Shown in pieces: positions 2,171 to 8,916 of a DNA stretch of 64,000 bases (its first letter is position 1; every line of letters starts with the position of its first letter). The stretch is from assembly GCA_001782235.1 (NCBI GenBank), contig MFOC01000007.1, positions 315,909-379,908 of the forward strand. The letters run 5' to 3'. The notes under the pieces were generated by a model. That model saw nothing but the letters and a program-made list of their open reading frames with translations, did no database searches and had not been told where the DNA came from. The DNA is from Candidatus Levybacteria bacterium RIFCSPHIGHO2_02_FULL_40_18. GTDB taxonomy: Bacteria > Patescibacteriota > Microgenomatia > Levybacterales > GWA1-39-11. The translations under genes and the position numbers were made by a program.

Positions 2171-2701
2171 ATGGCTAAGGATCCTGTTGAAAAATTTATT
2201 TCTGAGAATGTTCATTATTCAAAGAATAAGGATGATCTTTTAGATGTTCACATAGGAAATCCTCTTCGTCGAATTACGGAACTACTCGAAGAAATCAAAA
2301 GACAAAAAGCTTTCTCGTTTACTCTCAAGGGAAGTCTTGGTATTGCGGGGGTAATTCTCACTCTTTCGATTCTTGGGATTCTTGGGGCGGGGAATTTGCT
2401 TTGCGCCAAAGGTGTCCAGAAACAAATCGGGGTAGTCAAAGTATTAAACATAAAAGAAAAAGAGCCTCCGGCAATTCCCTTATTTTCCGACGTGATAGAT
2501 CTTTTTTTCGCAAGGCCAAAGCACAATAGCGTTGTTCTTGTTAAATCGGACGATACGGTTATCACGCTTCCATATTCAAGGAGTGTCAGCCTCAATCAAT
2601 ATGCCAGCCTTCCTGTAATTGCAACGGGAGATTATGACTCCTGCGGGCAGACGCTGACAATAAAAGACCCCACCGCAATCGAGATTTATACTTCACGATA
2701 A
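2171..2701 (+). CDS. hypothetical membrane-anchored protein
   Basis: 176-aa ORF with one predicted TM helix (LGIAGVILTLSILGILGAG). No recognisable motif. Confidence 0.4.
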   Translation: MAKDPVEKFISENVHYSKNKDDLLDVHIGNPLRRITELLEEIKRQKAFSFTLKGSLGIAGVILTLSILGILGAGNLLCAKGVQKQIGVVKVLNIKEKEPPAIPLFSDVIDLFFARPKHNSVVLVKSDDTVITLPYSRSVSLNQYASLPVIATGDYDSCGQTLTIKDPTAIEIYTSR

Positions 2702-2916: not shown

Positions 2917-3135
2917 ATTTGTCGAGTTGCTAAGACGAACCTTGAACTTTTTATACCACTTCGCGAGTCGATAAACAAATACTGGGATAGAAGTAAATAT
3001 GACTACGCCGTTTTTAGCCAAATAATCCTAGAATCTAGCAACGAATTTCAGTATAATGGAATGTACCGATATTAAGGAATATATCGAATAAATGCGCCAT
3101 GTGTCGCAATAAATTGCCCACCATGATAAATCACT

Positions 3136-4479
3136 ATGTCAATAATTCGAAAAGAAAAAATTACAAAACCTCGGATACTGTTTTTAGACTTCGACCCAAA
3201 GGTTGTTAAAGCGATTGCAGAAAAGGGCTACTTCACGATTCAAGGTGATTCTGGCCTAAGTGGGAAACCGACGAAAATCCCACAACACCCCAGTGAAGTG
3301 GAATTGATTTTTTGGGATTGCTCTAAATTGACCGTACGACCTTCTGGTATGGGCTTCTCACCCGATTATGACGCTATTCAAAAAATCCAGCCATATTTTA
3401 CATACGTAAGAAGTAAAAATGGGACAACTACTGTGTTGTTATCACGCGACACAATCGTCCCGAAGCATATTTCTGGTGCTACTGGTTACACTTTTGGTCT
3501 TACCCCACGCTCTACAACGAATATAATTCCGCCCACTTATGAGGAAGAAGGTATAGAACACTTAAAACCGCTTTTAGAACGCTTCGTACAAGACGAGAAC
3601 ATAAAGTTTTCAATCGGTTGGCTAGACAACAAAGTTGGGTACACTGATTTTTATACAGACGAGGACAATAATCGGTTTGTTGGGTTTTCTGACCCTGACT
3701 TGCTTATTTTCCCTTACGTAAATAGCCAGGTCGACTTTATTTTGTGCGCTCTGCAAGACTGTTTCCCTTATATGACAAACGAGGATATATTTCCTGACAT
3801 TCACAACGTAGTGTGGCTAAATTCAGACGAATTTATTTATCCAGAAGTGAAAACGCTTGAAGGCGAAATTGTCGACATACAGATAAAAGCACAAGAACAA
3901 ATAGGTAATGTCGAGAAGAAAATTCAGATTGTTCGTGACAAAACATCATTTTTGAACCAGGCGTTAATAGCCGACGACAGCGACGCATTTAACGAGGAAG
4001 GTAAGCTTAAACCACAGGTTGTAAAAATGTTTAAAGTATTAGGTTTTAAAGTAACTGACCTGGACGAAGAAAATAAAAAGTTAGGTCAGGCTCTAAAAGA
4101 AGATATACAAATATCAGATAGCGGATATTTCGCCTTAGTAGAGGTAAAAGGTACAGAACGAGGGGCGAAGGCTTCTTGGATTCGAGTCGACCTGAACGCG
4201 CACATCACAGAATATGCAAGAATAAAAAAAGTAGAAACTGTAAACCTCTGTTCTATGTTGGTTTTTAACCACGAACGACGAATAAACCCGCTAGACAGGA
4301 CGCCGCCGTTTGCTTCCGACCCAAATCTGATTACCTACTGTACGGATAGTAACATCACGCTTATACCGATTTACGAGCTATACAAACTCTGTGTAGCGGT
4401 ATTAACTGATAAAGTTAGTGTGGAAGACGCCCGAACTAAGCTAAAAAATCCAGGTTTATATAAATTTACAGAGAAATAA
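3136..4479 (+). CDS. uncharacterised protein with C-terminal PD-(D/E)xK nuclease-like domain
   Basis: 447 aa. The C-terminal motif ...QISDSGYFALVEVKGTERG... (D ... E-V-K) followed by ...NHERR... is a textbook restriction-endonuclease-fold signature. The middle is a predicted coiled coil (EVKTLEGEIVDIQIKAQEQIGNVEKKIQIV). The N-terminal alpha/beta domain is unrecognised. Local GC is higher than in neighbouring genes. Confidence 0.6.
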   Translation: MSIIRKEKITKPRILFLDFDPKVVKAIAEKGYFTIQGDSGLSGKPTKIPQHPSEVELIFWDCSKLTVRPSGMGFSPDYDAIQKIQPYFTYVRSKNGTTTVLLSRDTIVPKHISGATGYTFGLTPRSTTNIIPPTYEEEGIEHLKPLLERFVQDENIKFSIGWLDNKVGYTDFYTDEDNNRFVGFSDPDLLIFPYVNSQVDFILCALQDCFPYMTNEDIFPDIHNVVWLNSDEFIYPEVKTLEGEIVDIQIKAQEQIGNVEKKIQIVRDKTSFLNQALIADDSDAFNEEGKLKPQVVKMFKVLGFKVTDLDEENKKLGQALKEDIQISDSGYFALVEVKGTERGAKASWIRVDLNAHITEYARIKKVETVNLCSMLVFNHERRINPLDRTPPFASDPNLITYCTDSNITLIPIYELYKLCVAVLTDKVSVEDARTKLKNPGLYKFTEK

Positions 4480-4480
4480 T

Positions 4481-4723
4481 ATGACTAATCAGAACGATAC
4501 AAAGCAAAACACACCAGCAAAAGCTAACCCTGTTAAGCAAGTGGTAGAAGTAATGAGAAAAATTGACACAAAGTCGCCAGACGCCGCCCAAGAAAGGACA
4601 AAAAGACTAGCTTCGGTTGTGGGTCCACAACCGTTTTGTGGTACTAATTTTGAAATCCACAACTGCCCACAACTTAGCCTCGGCTGTCCACAAACTTGTG
4701 GAGTCCACAAGTTGTGGGATTAA
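4481..4723 (+). CDS. hypothetical small protein (uncertain; 3' half overlaps the CCACAA repeat array)
   Basis: Start ATG overlaps the upstream stop (TAATATG), suggesting translational coupling. The N-terminal 45 aa is polar and basic; the C-terminal Cys/His-rich part is encoded by the DNA repeats and may not be genuine coding sequence. Confidence 0.3.
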   Translation: MTNQNDTKQNTPAKANPVKQVVEVMRKIDTKSPDAAQERTKRLASVVGPQPFCGTNFEIHNCPQLSLGCPQTCGVHKLWD

Positions 4724-4737
4724 GATACCCACAAACA
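4613..4737. repeat. array of ~10 CCACAA/TTGTGG hexamers incl. three palindromic pairs (TTGTGGgtCCACAA; CCACAAacTTGTGG; CCACAAgTTGTGG)
   Basis: Read directly: ggttgtgggtccacaacc, ttttgtgg, atccacaa, cccacaac, gtccacaaacttgtgga, gtccacaagttgtggga, acccacaaac, all within 125 bp. Confidence 0.85.
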
Positions 4738-4780
4738 GACTTTTGTTGAAAGAATGTTTTCCAAATGCTAAGATTGATTC

Positions 4781-6595
4781 ATGTTTGATGATGATCCTAA
4801 AACCCCTACTAGAGACTTCTTTACTTCATTCACAAATTCAAAAGCAATAGGCGTAATAGTTGTTATTGGATTGATAGTTTTTTTTAACAGTTTATCAAAT
4901 CCATTTATCCTTGATGATAATGTTCAGATTCTTAATAATGCATCTATAAATAGCTTAAGCAATATCCCTTTATATTTTTTAAGAGGTGAAATATTTTCGG
5001 ATATTCCTTCAGTAAATATATTACAAATGCACTATAAGCCACTTTTTTATTCTGCTTATTCACTGATATATTTTTTTTCAGGTGACAATCCTGCGCTATT
5101 CCATTTAGTTCAATTAACGATATACATAGCAAATTCAATTTTGATTTTCTTTATTTTCTCACGCTTTCTGAACAAAGCGTTGTCACTTATTCTATCACTT
5201 ATACTGTTGGTTCACCCCATTAATAGTGAAGTTGCAATTTATATTGCTGACTTGCAAGATGTAATTTTTGTATTGTTTGGCTTATTAGCTTTTTATATCA
5301 CCATAAAAATTAAACATCCTATTACCTATAGATATATATTTTTATTATCATTTTTGTTACTTAGTTCACTTCTGTCAAAAGAGACAGGAATCCTCTTTTT
5401 AATTATTTGTCTATTCTATAGTTGGTTATTTAGTCGAAAAAGCCTCAAGCTAGTCACTGTCGGTGTTTCGATTTCATTAATTTCCTACATATCCCTCAGG
5501 TATTTAGCTTCATTGTCACCCTTATCGACTATAATACTACCCTCTGTTATTCAGTCAGCTCCTATTTTTAATGTTCTTTTAACTGTCCCTAAAATACTTC
5601 TTTATTATCTATCCAATTTCTTATACCCAGTTAATTTAGCAGTAGGACAAGAGTGGATAGTCAGACAGATTAGTTTTCAAGACTTTTATTTCCCAATTCT
5701 TCTTGATACGCTAGCCATCTTCGCTTTTGTTATCTGTGGAACCTTTCTCTATAGAAATAAAAGAAACTTACTTAAACAATTCATATTTTTTTCCTTATGG
5801 TTTTGGCTAGGCATGATAATTCATCTACAAATAATACAACTAGATTTTACTGTCGCAGATAGATGGTTTTATTTTCCGATAATAGGTCTTGCGGGAGCTA
5901 TGGGAACAGTGATAACAAGTTTTAAGTATGAAGGTAACAAGCGAAACTTAAAGAGCATCTTGGTCGCTATATTTATCTTTTTAATACTAATACTTTCAAT
6001 ATTAACTATTATAAGAAATTCACAGTGGCAAACTCCGTTAAAACTTTATGCACACGATGCAAAGTATGCGGAGAGCCCAGAGATTTACACTTATTACGGA
6101 GGACTTCTTATTCATGAGGGAAGGCACGATGAGGCCAAACTATATTTAGAAAAATCCATATCTCTAGATCCTTATCTTGGAAGCAACATAAATAACTTAG
6201 CTAAGCTTTATGTGTATAAAAAGGATTTTGCAAAAGCAAAAGAATTATATAGGCGTAATATAAGATCTAATAAAAGAAAATTAAGCCATAAGGACATTTC
6301 TTATATTGGATTAGCTCAAATTGAACTATTTATTGATAAGGATGCGCAAGAGGCAAAAAAATTTTCTCTACTCGCAACAAAAGAAAATAATTTTAATCTA
6401 AATGCTTTATTATATTTAGCGTTATCTGAATATCAACTTGGGGAGAGAGAAAAATCACTTCAAACAGCTCAAAAACTTTATACATCTGACCCCAGTCAGA
6501 AAAATCAGAGACTGTATTTACTAATTAAAGAAAATAAACTTTTATCAATAAGTGATCCTGCTTATGGACAAATATTTTTCGATTCAGAACGCTAA
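4781..6595 (+). CDS. polytopic membrane protein, GT39/ArnT/PMT_2-like glycosyltransferase fold with C-terminal TPR repeats
   Basis: More than 10 predicted TM helices. The HP-x-SE-V loop motif (LLVHPINSEVAIYIAD) is typical of ArnT/PMT-type glycosyltransferases. The C-terminus has TPR-like repeats (EAKLYLEKSISLDPYLGSNINNLAKLYVYKKDFAKAKELY). Confidence 0.6.
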   Translation: MFDDDPKTPTRDFFTSFTNSKAIGVIVVIGLIVFFNSLSNPFILDDNVQILNNASINSLSNIPLYFLRGEIFSDIPSVNILQMHYKPLFYSAYSLIYFFSGDNPALFHLVQLTIYIANSILIFFIFSRFLNKALSLILSLILLVHPINSEVAIYIADLQDVIFVLFGLLAFYITIKIKHPITYRYIFLLSFLLLSSLLSKETGILFLIICLFYSWLFSRKSLKLVTVGVSISLISYISLRYLASLSPLSTIILPSVIQSAPIFNVLLTVPKILLYYLSNFLYPVNLAVGQEWIVRQISFQDFYFPILLDTLAIFAFVICGTFLYRNKRNLLKQFIFFSLWFWLGMIIHLQIIQLDFTVADRWFYFPIIGLAGAMGTVITSFKYEGNKRNLKSILVAIFIFLILILSILTIIRNSQWQTPLKLYAHDAKYAESPEIYTYYGGLLIHEGRHDEAKLYLEKSISLDPYLGSNINNLAKLYVYKKDFAKAKELYRRNIRSNKRKLSHKDISYIGLAQIELFIDKDAQEAKKFSLLATKENNFNLNALLYLALSEYQLGEREKSLQTAQKLYTSDPSQKNQRLYLLIKENKLLSISDPAYGQIFFDSER

Positions 6596-6837
6596 TATTA
6601 ACGTAGCGCATCATAACAATTCTAGGATAAGCCAAACCTGTGCGAATTATATAGTTGAATCGATAATTTACCAGTTAATTAGTTATGTGTATTTTTCTAA
6701 TTAATATTTGTCAGAATTCAAATATCTTTAAATCATTGATTTTTTAAATATGCTTCTTCCGGACTTCCCAGACTGTTATGATCTATTTTACTCCAGTTGA
6801 CTTATTGATTTTAAGGTGATATGTTTATTTAATTAGA

Positions 6838-8559: not shown

Positions 8560-8845
8560 TTATCCTCTTGCAAAATAAGTTTTCACATAATATATTAAAA
8601 ACGGACTCAGCTTTTCGTAGATCATCTTTTTTTGTGGCGCACTTGTTCAGCAAGGAGATGATCTGAGCTGAGTCCAACAGGTGCGCCATCTTAGATTTAG
8701 GAATACATTAAAAAAATTTTCGCGTTTTCTTTCACTTCTTTTTGTTCTCAAGTTTCCGCCGTTTTCAAAAAGGGCTTTGAAACAATCCGCGCGACCCCCC
8801 ACGCGCGGAAGATTTTTGAGCTTCCTGCAACAGACTCTCTCTGTG

Positions 8846-8916
8846 TCGGGATGTGGGGAATTGAACCCCATCCACACGCACCCCATGCGCGCATTCTACC
8901 GTTAAACTACACCCCG
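8846..8916 (-). tRNA. tRNA-Pro (anticodon GGG)
   Basis: Manual fold of the reverse complement: acceptor CGGGGTG/CATCCCG (one G-U pair), D arm GTTT-AACGGTA-GAAT, anticodon stem CGCGC/GCGTG with loop AUGGGGU (U33, anticodon GGG, G37), T arm GGGG-TTCAATT-CCCC, discriminator A. No CCA is encoded. Confidence 0.8.

What the first reader, a model, noticed from the sequence alone, without database searches (positions are those of the whole stretch)
3136..4479. Orphan PD-(D/E)xK nuclease-fold protein with unrecognised N-terminal domain: candidate novel nuclease or defence effector
The C-terminal ~130 aa carry a restriction-endonuclease-fold signature: ISDSGYFALVEVKG (Asp ... Glu-Val-Lys on consecutive beta-strands) followed by NHERR and a helical tail. 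The central region is a predicted coiled coil. The N-terminal ~230 aa (RILFLDFDPKVVKAIAEKGYF ... ELIFWDCSKL) fit no family I recognise. This architecture of sensor or oligomerisation domain, coiled coil and PD-(D/E)xK nuclease resembles single-gene defence nucleases such as the Shedu DUF4263 type. The gene has higher GC than the surrounding housekeeping genes and follows a ~220-bp AT-rich promoter-like gap. It is translationally coupled (TAATATG) to a small downstream ORF, and then comes a dense palindromic hexamer array. Together these read as a self-contained, possibly horizontally acquired module.
Basis: partly seen in the sequence, partly recalled or inferred. Interest (0 to 1): 0.8.

Follow-up and report, generated by a model that had tools for sequence, protein, structure and literature searches.

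The report
Orphan FokI-like nuclease on mobile element
The gene encodes an uncharacterised DNA-cutting enzyme, a FokI-type nuclease fused to a catalytically dead amidotransferase-like domain, that was left behind by a small integrating mobile element; because its relatives sit among anti-phage genes on plasmids, it is probably a new stand-alone defence nuclease.

Summary
The 447-aa ORF (3136-4479, +) is a real gene under strong purifying selection (dN/dS 0.06-0.09). No Pfam, NCBIfam, PADLOC, PHROGs or PDB sequence search recognises it. A confident AlphaFold model (pLDDT 85) splits it into three parts:
- an N-terminal class-I glutamine-amidotransferase-like domain with no conserved Cys/His triad;
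- a 43-residue central helix;

D323, E336 and K338 align with FokI D450, D467 and K469 and are 99%, 95% and 82% conserved in 100 diverse members of a family of 587 representative clusters.

The catalytic Asp was misassigned, the GC claim is wrong (0.397 against a window mean of 0.391), and the module is not self-contained. It is the left ~1.7 kb of a decayed ~5.9-kb serine-recombinase integrative element at tRNA-Pro. Most of the "promoter gap" is the orphaned 3' coding tail of the recombinase gene. The small downstream ORF is truncated, and the hexamer array is an unrelated recurrent element.

Distant relatives are stand-alone genes on plasmids, phage-plasmids and defence islands (next to PifA, PD-T4-5, GmrSD and RM genes). 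The most likely function is a mobile-element-borne defence endonuclease. This is untested.

The parts
2921..2924 (.). Left junction of the transplantable block. It is a GTCG core, the putative att crossover.
   Evidence: BLAST homology with L001, L002, L004 and L006 starts at window 2918-2921. All five contexts share GTCG(A/G) onward and have unrelated DNA before it. The same GTCG is the 3' acceptor end of tRNA-Pro inside the recombinase ORF in L001 and L006.
2923..3075 (+). Orphaned 3' coding tail of a large serine recombinase gene: 50 codons (RVAKTNLELF...QYNGMYRY) plus a TAA stop at 3073-3075, with no start codon.
   Evidence: The frame is open and conserved at protein level in the window, L001, L002 and L006; L004 has one in-frame stop. 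pN/pS is 0.07-0.18 in this frame and 0.9-4.4 in the other two, and variable sites fall 9/4/25 across codon positions 1/2/3. The frame has the same codon phase as the recombinase ORF at the GTCG core in L001 and L006, and joining them gives a 576/577-aa protein.
3052..3057 (+). TATAAT hexamer, invariant in all five loci; the likely -10 element for the nuclease gene in the integrated state.
   Evidence: Alignment A6. The consensus promoter scan of the region is not above chance, so promoter function is inferred.
3094..3107 (.). Near-palindrome GCGCCA-tg-TGtCGC between the -10 element and the start codon. It is a perfect palindrome, GCGCCAtgTGGCGC, in L001 and L002.
   Evidence: Alignment A6. An operator role is only a guess.
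3136..4479 (+). Gene for the 447-aa protein.
   Evidence: ORF; homologues; dN/dS 0.057-0.09; AlphaFold model with pLDDT 85.1.
3160..3780 (+). N-terminal domain (about residues 9-215): class-I glutamine-amidotransferase-like fold, a pseudo-enzyme.
3841..3969 (+). Central 43-residue helix (residues 236-278), the putative coiled-coil or oligomerisation element.
   Evidence: DSSP on the model. Hydrophobic residues occupy 8 of 14 a/d positions in two registers. Oligomerisation is inferred.
3988..4476 (+). C-terminal FokI-type PD-(D/E)xK nuclease domain (about residues 285-447).
4099..4149 (+). Catalytic motif E322-D323 ... E336-V-K338.
   Evidence: Invariant in the close family. Conservation in 100 diverse members is 96%, 99%, 95% and 82% respectively. 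hhalign register: D323 = FokI D450, E336 = D467, K338 = K469 (FokI sequence verified).
4267..4299 (+). Second conserved motif N378-H379-x-R381 ... R388.
   Evidence: N378 is 99% conserved and R388 100% across 100 members. The motif aligns with the FokI strand FLFVSGH.
4481..4591 (+). Conserved first 37 codons of the small companion gene, separated from the nuclease stop by one base.
   Evidence: tblastn: residues 1-37 of the L001 80-aa protein are 86% identical. pN is 0.057 and pS 0.857. The full-length gene is conserved only in L001 and L006.
4592..4723 (+). Non-homologous tail of the 80-aa ORF, read out of the hexamer array. The small gene is truncated or chimeric in this window.
   Evidence: Homology to L001 and L002 ends at 4594. 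Protein alignment A4.
4580..4594 (.). Recombination junction. The 15 nt GACGCCGCCCAAGAA is shared by the nuclease block (as in L001) and by the array-bearing DNA (as in L019, L021 and L022).
   Evidence: BLAST ranges overlap: L001 homology ends at 4594, and L021/L022 homology starts at 4580.
8845..8916 (-). tRNA-Pro(GGG), the gene next to which the intact element ends in related contigs. It is the putative integration target.
   Evidence: ARAGORN. This tRNA is 86% identical to the L006 tRNA-Pro, which overlaps the recombinase 3' end.

Best explanation
The gene encodes a stand-alone DNA endonuclease carried as cargo by mobile elements, most likely as a defence or exclusion function.

Shown:
- The protein has three parts: an N-terminal class-I glutamine-amidotransferase-like domain that lacks the catalytic Cys-His-Glu triad, a 43-residue helix, and a C-terminal FokI-type PD-(D/E)xK cleavage domain.
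- Its D323/E336/K338 site is conserved across a family of 587 representative clusters.
- The gene lies 60 nt downstream of the orphaned 3' tail of a serine-recombinase gene. That is the attL end of a ~5.9-kb integrative element that inserts next to tRNA-Pro. In this window the element has lost everything beyond codon 37 of the small companion gene.

Inferred mechanism:
- The long helix dimerises or oligomerises the protein, bringing together two single-active-site cleavage domains. FokI needs such a pairing to make a double-strand break (established knowledge of FokI).
- The dead amidotransferase domain serves as the sensing or regulatory module. Its conserved residues (D18, G37, G40, E54, G96) lie at the C-terminal ends of the beta-strands, where flavodoxin-like folds bind ligands.
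- It would license cleavage in response to an infection- or invader-derived cue: a ligand, a protein or modified DNA.
- No methyltransferase is needed because activity is gated, not sequence-restricted.
For: Fold and active site:
- AlphaFold model with pLDDT 85.
- Foldseek agrees.
- The catalytic register matches FokI D450/D467/K469.
- Conservation: D323 99%, E336 95%, K338 82%, N378 99%, R388 100%.
- The N-domain has no conserved Cys or His.

Selection: dN/dS is 0.057-0.09.

Mobility:
- The left junction is base-precise in five unrelated flanks.
- Intact relatives carry an HTH_17 excisionase-like gene and a large serine recombinase (phrog_95, E 2e-54) ending at tRNA-Pro.
- The recombinase tail is reconstructed across GTCG in frame in two loci and carries a coding substitution signature.

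Stand-alone nature: the companion genes are not found near distant relatives, and no methyltransferase is consistently adjacent.

Defence and mobile-element association of relatives:
- P0018 lies between a 1323-aa ResIII/Eco57I enzyme and GmrSD.
- On a K. michiganensis conjugative plasmid, one intact copy follows pifC and a 728-aa P-loop NTPase at the PifA position and is followed by PD-T4-5, E 4e-114. A second, split copy follows split pifA genes that match PADLOC PifA at E 1e-155.
- P0033 is 4.6 kb from a methyltransferase/restriction-enzyme pair.
- P0021 lies between two tyrosine integrases.
- A Klebsiella copy lies between two IS1 elements.
- A Pantoea copy lies in a P1-like phage-plasmid.
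- Another copy lies next to RelE/ParE on a linear plasmid.
Against: - There is no experimental evidence for any member.
- No PADLOC model matches the protein or 13 relatives tested.
- A recognised defence gene lies within about 10 kb in only about 3 of about 10 independent distant contexts. Several contexts are ordinary metabolic neighbourhoods.
- There is no identifiable DNA-binding domain, and nothing is known about what the N-domain binds.
- K338 is replaced by Thr or Ser in about 13% of relatives.
- Sequence-level similarity to FokI is not significant on its own (hhalign E 0.097).
- The inter-domain geometry of the model is uncertain (pTM 0.51), so autoinhibition and dimerisation are guesses.
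- In this window the element is decayed, so the gene could be an unexpressed survivor.
- The close family was not found on IMG/VR viral contigs.
Confidence: 0.5

Rival explanations
1. Modification-dependent (Type IV-like) restriction enzyme. The dead amidotransferase domain directly reads a DNA hypermodification, for example a glutamyl-, amino-acid- or sugar-type adduct, and targets the FokI-type domain to modified phage DNA. This is a specific sub-case of the defence reading.
For: - There is no methyltransferase partner.
- There is a precedent for a methyltransferase-less nuclease fused to an inactivated enzyme domain that senses modified bases: the END nucleases (PMC12191111).
- One relative lies next to GmrSD, a Type IV enzyme.
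- Amidotransferase-like folds without a triad (ThuA, the IFT52 N-domain, the GH42 M-domain) are among the structural hits.
Against: No evidence links this fold to DNA binding. There is no conserved basic surface or DNA-binding motif that I could test. The idea rests on analogy only.
Confidence: 0.12
2. Element-maintenance factor. The protein serves the integrative element itself, for example as an accessory or directionality factor for the serine recombinase (like XisH for XisF), or as a nuclease for replication or transfer of the excised circle.
For: - In the reconstructed circular form the gene lies 60 nt downstream of the recombinase stop, on the same strand.
- It is retained in all versions of the Woesebacterial element, while the cargo between the ~206-aa gene and the HTH gene varies.
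Against: - The XisH similarity is much weaker than that to FokI and is generic for the fold.
- The element already has an HTH_17 excisionase-like gene.
- Distant relatives occur without any serine recombinase: with tyrosine integrases, with IS1, on plasmids, or alone.
- The gene survives intact in the window and in L004, where the recombinase is gone.
Confidence: 0.13
3. Toxin-antitoxin or addiction module. The nuclease is a toxin and the translationally coupled small protein is its antitoxin, stabilising the element.
For: - The one-base stop-start spacing is conserved.
- The small gene is under purifying selection where intact (L001 against L006, omega 0.175; first 37 codons pN 0.057 against pS 0.857).
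- A relative lies next to a RelE/ParE gene.
Against: - The small gene is truncated after codon 37 in the window and after about codon 24 in L004, while the nuclease remains intact with all catalytic residues. An essential antitoxin should not be dispensable.
- The small gene is absent next to all distant relatives.
Confidence: 0.1
4. Non-functional relic. In this window the gene is merely a not-yet-degraded fragment of a dead element and does nothing.
For: The recombinase, the excisionase-like gene and the other element genes are missing from the whole window. The companion ORF is truncated. The recombinase tail is orphaned.
Against: The ORF is full length with every conserved residue intact. 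A 99%-identical copy and 89-91%-identical copies exist in other samples. L004 independently keeps the gene after losing the rest of the element.
Confidence: 0.08
5. Housekeeping repair nuclease functionally linked to the neighbouring recA-recX genes.
For: recX and recA lie 1-2.6 kb upstream in the window and in the P0004 contig.
Against: - The flank changes at a base-precise junction. In L001 the upstream genes are AhpC and SNase, in L002 PIG-L and in L004 transaldolase.
- In L006 recA is on the other side of the tRNA.
- Only 4 loci were found among 185,579 species-representative genomes.
Confidence: 0.02

Closest known systems
FokI cleavage domain (Type IIS restriction endonucleases; also N.BspD6I and R.BspD6I)
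   Same: - It has the same alpha-beta-beta-beta-alpha-beta core.
- The register D323/E336/K338 equals D450/D467/K469.
- The beta4 strand and the C-terminal helix also align.
- There is a single active site per domain, implying a need for pairing.
   Different: - There is no winged-helix DNA-recognition domain.
- There is no cognate methyltransferase.
- No sequence-profile match exists.
- The FokI dimer-interface pair D483/R487 is not conserved in the (low-confidence) alignment.
- The N-terminus is an amidotransferase-like pseudo-enzyme joined by a long helix.
Shedu (SduA, DUF4263)
   Same: It is a single-gene PD-(D/E)xK nuclease whose N-terminal domain is thought to control activity, and it occurs on mobile elements and in defence islands.
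   Different: No DUF4263 or SduA model matches. The nuclease subfamily is FokI-like, and the N-domain fold is unrelated.
END nucleases (PMC12191111)
   Same: The logic is the same: a methyltransferase-less, stand-alone nuclease fused to a catalytically inactivated enzyme domain that serves as the sensor, with no conserved partner gene.
   Different: END nucleases use a PLD-type (HxK) nuclease and an inactive Endonuclease III/Ogg1 domain. Here the nuclease is PD-(D/E)xK FokI-type and the dead domain is amidotransferase-like. They are not homologous.
Class-I glutamine amidotransferase-like domains without a triad (ThuA-like, the IFT52 N-domain, GATase1_like)
   Different: I found no described fusion of this fold to a nuclease. 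There is no sequence-level match to any of these families.
Small integrative elements driven by a large serine recombinase (phage-type serine integrases; Tn4451-like elements, from my own knowledge), and integration that splits a gene at attP (integration-dependent immunity in mycobacteriophages, from my own knowledge)
   Same: The intact relatives are about 5.9 kb. They have a Resolvase+Recombinase+Zn-ribbon integrase and an HTH_17 excisionase-like gene and end at a tRNA gene. The recombinase ORF changes its C-terminus on integration.
   Different: The excised form was not observed. No mobilisation or structural genes were recognised. In the window only the attL-proximal 1.7 kb survives.

Membership tests
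PD-(D/E)xK nuclease superfamily | alpha-beta-beta-beta-alpha-beta core fold | tested here: met
   [not shown]
PD-(D/E)xK nuclease superfamily | Conserved Asp at the start of beta2 and (D/E)-x-K in beta3 | tested here: met
   D323 is 99% conserved, E336 95% and K338 82% in 100 diverse members. All three are invariant in the close family.
Type IIS restriction-modification system, FokI type | FokI-type non-specific cleavage domain | tested here: met
   [not shown]
Type IIS restriction-modification system, FokI type | Sequence-specific DNA-recognition domain fused to the cleavage domain | tested here: not met
   The N-terminal domain matches glutamine amidotransferase-like folds and no DNA-binding fold.
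Type IIS restriction-modification system, FokI type | Cognate DNA methyltransferase encoded alongside | tested here: not met
   There is none in the window's neighbourhood and none consistently near relatives. The RrnaAD gene on some elements is an rRNA-type methyltransferase and is absent from the window, L004 and the P0004 contig.
Type IIS restriction-modification system, FokI type | Sequence-profile membership | tested here: not met
   There is no Pfam or NCBIfam match at E<=1 and no PDB sequence match with family profiles. hhalign to FokI gives E 0.097.
Shedu (SduA / DUF4263) | DUF4263 nuclease domain recognised by Pfam or PADLOC models | tested here: not met
   No hit in Pfam or PADLOC.
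Shedu (SduA / DUF4263) | Single-gene system with a variable N-terminal regulatory domain | tested here: met
   There is no conserved partner across the broad family. The N-terminal region varies, and most relatives share only residues ~189-445.
Shedu (SduA / DUF4263) | Tetrameric assembly that senses DNA ends | not testable with these tools
   Only monomer prediction is available.
Class-I glutamine amidotransferase | GATase1 (flavodoxin-like) fold | tested here: met
   [not shown]
Class-I glutamine amidotransferase | Catalytic Cys-His-Glu triad | tested here: not met
   No N-domain column exceeds 33% Cys or 23% His in 100 members. There is no invariant Cys or His in the close family.
Large-serine-recombinase integrative element | Resolvase + Recombinase + Zn-ribbon recombinase gene | tested here: not met
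   It is present in L001, L002, L006 and the P0004 contig. It is absent from the whole window; only its 50-codon 3' tail remains.
Large-serine-recombinase integrative element | Discrete ends, with insertion next to a specific target (tRNA-Pro) | tested here: met
   The left junction is base-precise in 5 contexts. A tRNA-Pro lies at the recombinase end in L001 and L006 and downstream in the window and L004. The partial tRNA direct repeat is significant only in L001.
Large-serine-recombinase integrative element | Excised circular form, or an intact attP-spanning recombinase | tested here: inconclusive
   The frame phase matches in two loci and the tail shows a coding signature. However, no database protein spans the junction.
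END nucleases | Inactive Endonuclease III/Ogg1 sensor domain | tested here: not met
   The non-nuclease domain is amidotransferase-like. The family definition comes from PMC12191111.
Type II toxin-antitoxin module | Toxin gene always accompanied by an intact antitoxin gene | tested here: not met
   The small ORF is truncated in the window and in L004 while the nuclease gene remains intact. It is absent near distant relatives.

The most novel reading that the evidence does not exclude
This is the founding example of a widespread (587 clusters at 50% identity), so far unnamed family of single-gene immune nucleases. In it, a catalytically dead glutamine-amidotransferase domain acts as the sensor, of a small molecule, a phage protein or hypermodified DNA. 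That sensor licenses a FokI-type cleavage domain held in pairs by a coiled coil. The family is spread by plasmids, phage-plasmids and mini integrative elements, from CPR bacteria to Enterobacteria and cyanobacteria.
Probability: 0.4. Interest if true: 0.7.

Novelty: new variant of a known kind. Interest (0 to 1): 0.55.

Why it matters
- **A new defence architecture.** If the defence reading is right, the catalogue of stand-alone nuclease defences gains a new architecture (dead amidotransferase sensor plus FokI-type cutter). No current defence-annotation model tested here detects it, although relatives sit on clinical Klebsiella plasmids between PifA and PD-T4-5.
- **A natural FokI-type domain with different gating.** FokI's cleavage domain is the workhorse of ZFN and TALEN engineering. 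A natural FokI-type domain gated by something other than a DNA-recognition module is mechanistically and practically interesting.
- **Mobile elements in CPR bacteria.** The locus documents a very small serine-recombinase integrative element in CPR bacteria (Woesebacteria). Its recombinase gene appears to span attP, so integration swaps its C-terminus. Mobile elements and defence in these reduced-genome organisms are poorly known.
- **A caution for annotators.** A conserved 'promoter gap' can be the orphaned end of a gene split by integration.

Tried and rejected
Sequence and profile searches that found nothing useful:
- Pfam, NCBIfam, PADLOC and PHROGs gave no family for the protein.
- PDB sequence searches, as a single sequence and as two family profiles, found nothing relevant. 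The ubiquitin and PsaH hits are noise.
Ten distant members gave only weak EF-Tu domain-2 hits.
- The AFDB50 fold library was unavailable.

Collection scans:
- The genome-collection scan gave only 4 loci.
- The viral-contig scan gave none.
- There was no megablast match to the Klebsiella relative's DNA among complete E. coli genomes; this detects only close (about 85% or more) copies.

Literature searches by accession numbers and by architecture vocabulary found no description of this family.

Ideas considered and rejected:
- **Replication origin or DnaA-box cluster for the hexamer array.** No dnaA or dnaN is adjacent in any of 8 copies, and the neighbours are unrelated.
- **A known RNA family in the upstream region or the array.** Rfam gave only sub-threshold noise.
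- **A conserved RNA structure upstream.** RNAalifold gave a positive (unfavourable) covariation term (+1.62 kcal/mol) and only one compensatory pair. Coding explains the conservation better.
- **A paralogue in the 447-aa ORF next to P0021.** There is no similarity.
- **Terminal inverted repeats of the element.** None were convincing.
- **An att-type partial tRNA direct repeat.** It is significant only in L001.
- **Direct evidence for the excised circle.** None was found.
Full report
**1. The observation**

An ATG-initiated ORF of 447 codons lies at 3136-4479 on the + strand. The 219-bp upstream gap is there, and so is the TAA-T-ATG junction with an 80-codon ORF at 4481-4723.

The TTGTGG/CCACAA cluster is also real. 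Ten of the window's 32 sites fall in 118 bp at 4617-4734.

The ORF is a gene, not a chance reading frame. It has 21 close homologue clusters, the only one named by a source being a Candidatus Woesebacteria protein. An exhaustive HMMER search finds 587 representative clusters at E<=1e-3. dN/dS against three orthologues is 0.057-0.09.

The GC claim fails. The gene's GC is 0.397 and the window mean is 0.391, which puts it at the 52nd percentile of same-length windows. recA is 0.436. The outlier is the downstream TPR gene at 0.306.

**2. The protein**

No sequence library recognises the protein: Pfam, NCBIfam, PADLOC, PHROGs and PDB sequences all give nothing. An AlphaFold2 model built on 18 homologues is confident, with mean pLDDT 85.1. 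Its pTM of 0.51 means the domain packing is uncertain.

Foldseek independently ranks FokI first (E 1.4e-4, probability 1.00) and amidotransferases next (E 2e-4). Between the two domains lies one 43-residue helix (236-278) with partial heptad periodicity.

**3. The active site**

In the close family E322, D323, E336, K338, G339, N378, H379, R381 and R388 are invariant. In 100 diverse members, down to about 20% identity, conservation is as follows:

| Residue | Conservation |
|---|---|
| D310 | 95% |
| E322 | 96% |
| D323 | 99% |
| E336 | 95% |
| K338 | 82% (Thr or Ser in most of the rest) |
| N378 | 99% |
| R388 | 100% |

I aligned the family profile to the FokI cleavage domain. The FokI sequence came from memory and was verified against 1fok and 2fok. 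The alignment score is not significant on its own (E 0.097). Its register nevertheless matches what the structures predict:
- D323 aligns with D450, E336 with D467 and K338 with K469.
- The beta4 strand aligns (LVFNH with FLFVSGH).
- The C-terminal helix aligns (VSVEDARTKL with LTLEEVRRKF).

The N-domain has no column with more than 33% Cys or 23% His. The amidotransferase triad is absent, so the domain is a pseudo-enzyme. Its conserved residues (P12, D18, G37, G40, P49, E54, G96, F101) lie mostly at strand ends. That is the usual ligand-binding crest of flavodoxin-like folds; this last point is inference.

**4. The locus is the stump of a mobile element**

BLAST of related contigs against the window shows one shared block. 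It runs from 2921 to 4594 for L001 and L002 (86% identity), to 4559 for L004, and to 4401 for L006.

The left boundary is base-precise. Five contexts share GTCG(A/G)... onward and have unrelated DNA before it. The upstream neighbours are:
- a DUF2007-like gene in the window;
- AhpC in L001;
- PIG-L in L002;
- transaldolase in L004;
- unknown in L006, where the contig starts only 26 bases before the junction.

In L001, L002, L003, L006 and the P0004 contig, the gene is followed by:
- the small gene;
- a ~206-aa gene;
- variable cargo, which includes an rRNA-adenine-methyltransferase-family gene (RrnaAD, 145 bits) in L001, L002, L003 and L006 (Pfam not looked up for the cut L003 copy), while the P0004 contig carries a DUF8370/DUF8371 gene instead;
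- an HTH_17 excisionase-like gene;
- a large serine recombinase (phrog_95 integrase, E 2e-54), cut off in L003, where the contig ends first.

The 3' end of the recombinase overlaps a tRNA-Pro gene. None of these other genes exists anywhere in the window. A tRNA-Pro(GGG) lies 4.3 kb downstream at 8845-8916.

**5. The 'promoter-like gap' is mostly coding sequence**

The 215 bp upstream of the gene are better conserved than the gene itself. Window against L006 is 80.7% identical upstream and 66.4% in the CDS.

The reason is a start-less + strand frame: RVAKTNLELFIPLRESINKYWDRSKYDY...QYNGMYRY, with its stop at 3073-3075. It begins at the junction and is conserved at protein level. Its substitution pattern is that of coding DNA:
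- pN/pS is 0.07-0.18 in this frame and 0.9-4.4 in the other two.
- Variable sites fall 9/4/25 across codon positions 1/2/3.

In both L001 and L006 the GTCG core at the tRNA end lies in the recombinase ORF (...SFRNGR|GDRT...) at the same codon phase as the GTCG at the left junction. Joining the two gives a 576/577-aa recombinase that ends in this tail.

The best reading is that attP lies inside the recombinase gene. Integration into the 3' end of tRNA-Pro then splits the gene. In the excised form, the nuclease gene follows the recombinase stop by 60 nt.

This reading is not directly confirmed. A search with a junction-spanning query found only integrated-form C-termini ending ...GRG(K/D)RT. The partial-tRNA direct repeat expected at the far end is significant only in L001.

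An invariant TATAAT at 3052-3057 sits within the tail and is the likely -10 element in the integrated state. The generic promoter scan of the region is not above chance.

**6. The small ORF and the hexamer array**

The small gene is real where it is intact. L001 against L006 gives omega 0.175, and the first 37 codons have pN 0.057 against pS 0.857.

In the window, homology stops after codon 37, at nucleotide 4594. In L004 it stops after about codon 24. The remainder of the window's 80-codon frame is read out of the hexamer array.

That array is a separate, recurrent cis-element. Seven other metagenome contigs carry the same arrangement, with conserved hexamers and variable spacers. The array sits upstream of unrelated genes:
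- a TPR membrane protein in the window and L021;
- a homologue of the window's 176-aa gene in L019 and L022;
- a ParB-HTH-like gene in L023;
- between a Fic gene and a trehalose-phosphate synthase gene in L018.

No dnaA or dnaN lies beside any copy. Homology to the array-bearing contigs begins at 4572-4580 and overlaps the nuclease block by only 15 nt, GACGCCGCCCAAGAA. So 4580-4594 is a recombination junction. The array is not part of the nuclease module.

**7. What the wider family shows**

Most of the 587 relatives are 450-620 aa long and share only residues ~189-445. The ~600-aa forms add a C-terminal translation-factor-type beta-barrel (eIF5B domain II, E 4e-4).

Neither the small gene nor the ~206-aa gene accompanies distant relatives. 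No methyltransferase is consistently adjacent either. The nuclease is therefore a stand-alone gene.

Contexts that point to conflict or mobility:
- One relative lies between a 1323-aa ResIII/Eco57I enzyme and GmrSD.
- One lies between two tyrosine integrases with an HTH_17 gene.
- One is 4.6 kb from a methyltransferase/restriction-enzyme pair.
- One is next to a transposase.
- One lies between two IS1 copies on a Klebsiella IncFIA plasmid.
- On a K. michiganensis conjugative plasmid, an intact copy follows pifC and a 728-aa P-loop NTPase at the PifA position and is followed by PD-T4-5, E 4e-114. A second, split copy follows split pifA genes that match PADLOC PifA at E 1e-155.
- One lies among accessory genes of a Pantoea record that looks like a P1-like phage-plasmid.
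- One is next to RelE/ParE on a 42-kb linear plasmid.

Other contexts are unremarkable. All annotated copies are labelled 'hypothetical protein'. None matches a PADLOC model. I found no paper describing the family.

**8. Most likely mechanism**

Shown: the protein has a FokI-type nuclease domain with a conserved active site, a dead amidotransferase-like domain and a long helix. It is carried by mobile elements. It has no partner methyltransferase.

Inferred: the helix pairs two single-site cleavage domains, which FokI requires for double-strand cleavage. The pseudo-enzyme domain gates or targets the nuclease in response to an invader-derived cue. The outcome is either degradation of invading DNA or abortive infection.

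The END nucleases offer a precedent for the logic, although they are not homologous. They fuse a methyltransferase-less nuclease to an inactivated repair-enzyme domain that senses modified DNA (PMC12191111).

I give the defence or exclusion reading about 0.5. Of that, about 0.12 is for the specific modification-dependent variant. The rivals are:
- an element-maintenance or recombination accessory role, about 0.13;
- a toxin-antitoxin pair with the small gene, about 0.10, weakened because the small gene is truncated twice while the nuclease stays intact;
- a silent relic, about 0.08;
- a recA-linked housekeeping nuclease, about 0.02, effectively refuted by the variable synteny.

**9. Verdict**

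The family is undescribed, and the domain combination appears to be new. It is a new variant of a known kind, the gated stand-alone defence-type nuclease. Interest is moderate to good (0.55). What limits it is the complete absence of functional evidence.

Noticed in passing
window 4617-4734; also L017-L023: A ~120-bp array of TTGTGG/CCACAA hexamers in a fixed arrangement recurs in at least 7 other metagenome contigs. The hexamers are conserved and the spacers vary. It lies upstream of unrelated genes: a TPR membrane protein, a homologue of the 176-aa gene, a ParB-HTH-like gene, and between Fic and trehalose-P synthase genes. In the window a promoter-like site (4746-4774) follows it. No dnaA or dnaN is adjacent and there is no Rfam match. 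It looks like an operator array or a small repeated intergenic element of these CPR genomes, and its binding factor is unknown.
   Followed up: partly
window 4580-4594; L019, L021 and L022 at the corresponding place: In the array-bearing contigs this 15-nt stretch is the right arm of a GC-rich hairpin, GGGCGGCG-tc-CGCCGCCC, with a T-run on the opposite strand (terminator-like). In the window the left arm is replaced by small-ORF sequence, which marks a recombination junction at a short shared sequence.
   Followed up: partly
window 4781-6700: The 604-aa TPR/membrane-protein gene has markedly low GC (0.306, GC3 0.241) against a window mean of 0.391. It is the real compositional outlier of this neighbourhood. 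It occupies the place where related contigs carry the rest of the integrative element.
   Followed up: no
L001 11156-12043 (also L002, L003, L006): The intact elements carry an rRNA adenine dimethylase-family gene (RrnaAD, 145 bits). Its SQNFL...NIPFN motifs look Erm-like to me. It could be a macrolide-resistance-type methyltransferase carried on a CPR mobile element. It is replaced by a DUF8370/DUF8371 gene in the P0004 contig.
   Followed up: no
P0039, P0046, P0054, P0067 and other ~600-aa relatives (alignment A5): The long forms of the family carry an extra C-terminal beta-barrel related to translation-factor domain II (eIF5B, E 4e-4; weak Pfam GTP_EFTU_D2 hits). The window protein lacks it. 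Its role is unknown.
   Followed up: partly
P0168-P0173: Several related CPR serine-recombinase C-termini end ...GRG(K/D)RT or ...SRG. That means they read into a GGTCGGGG-type tRNA acceptor end. It suggests a wider family of small elements that target tRNA 3' ends with attP inside the recombinase gene.
   Followed up: no
L004 about 3262-3300: A second, partial tRNA-like T-arm sequence (AGGGAGAATTGAACTCCCT) lies between the truncated small ORF and the intact tRNA-Pro. It may be a scar of an earlier integration or excision event.
   Followed up: no
L026 and L029 (K. michiganensis plasmid NZ_CP024642.1): The plasmid carries the rep-pifC-pifA-[family gene] region twice. In one copy both pifA and the family gene are intact; in the other both are split into fragments.
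   Followed up: no
L015 5065-6408: A 447-aa ORF of unknown function lies immediately upstream of the distant relative P0021, in an island flanked by integrases. It has the same length as the window protein but no detectable similarity and no family match.
   Followed up: partly
window 2171-2701 and L019/L022: The 176-aa gene next to recA has 241-aa homologues elsewhere whose annotated N-termini overlap a copy of the hexamer array. No family match was found beyond a weak DUF553 hit.
   Followed up: no
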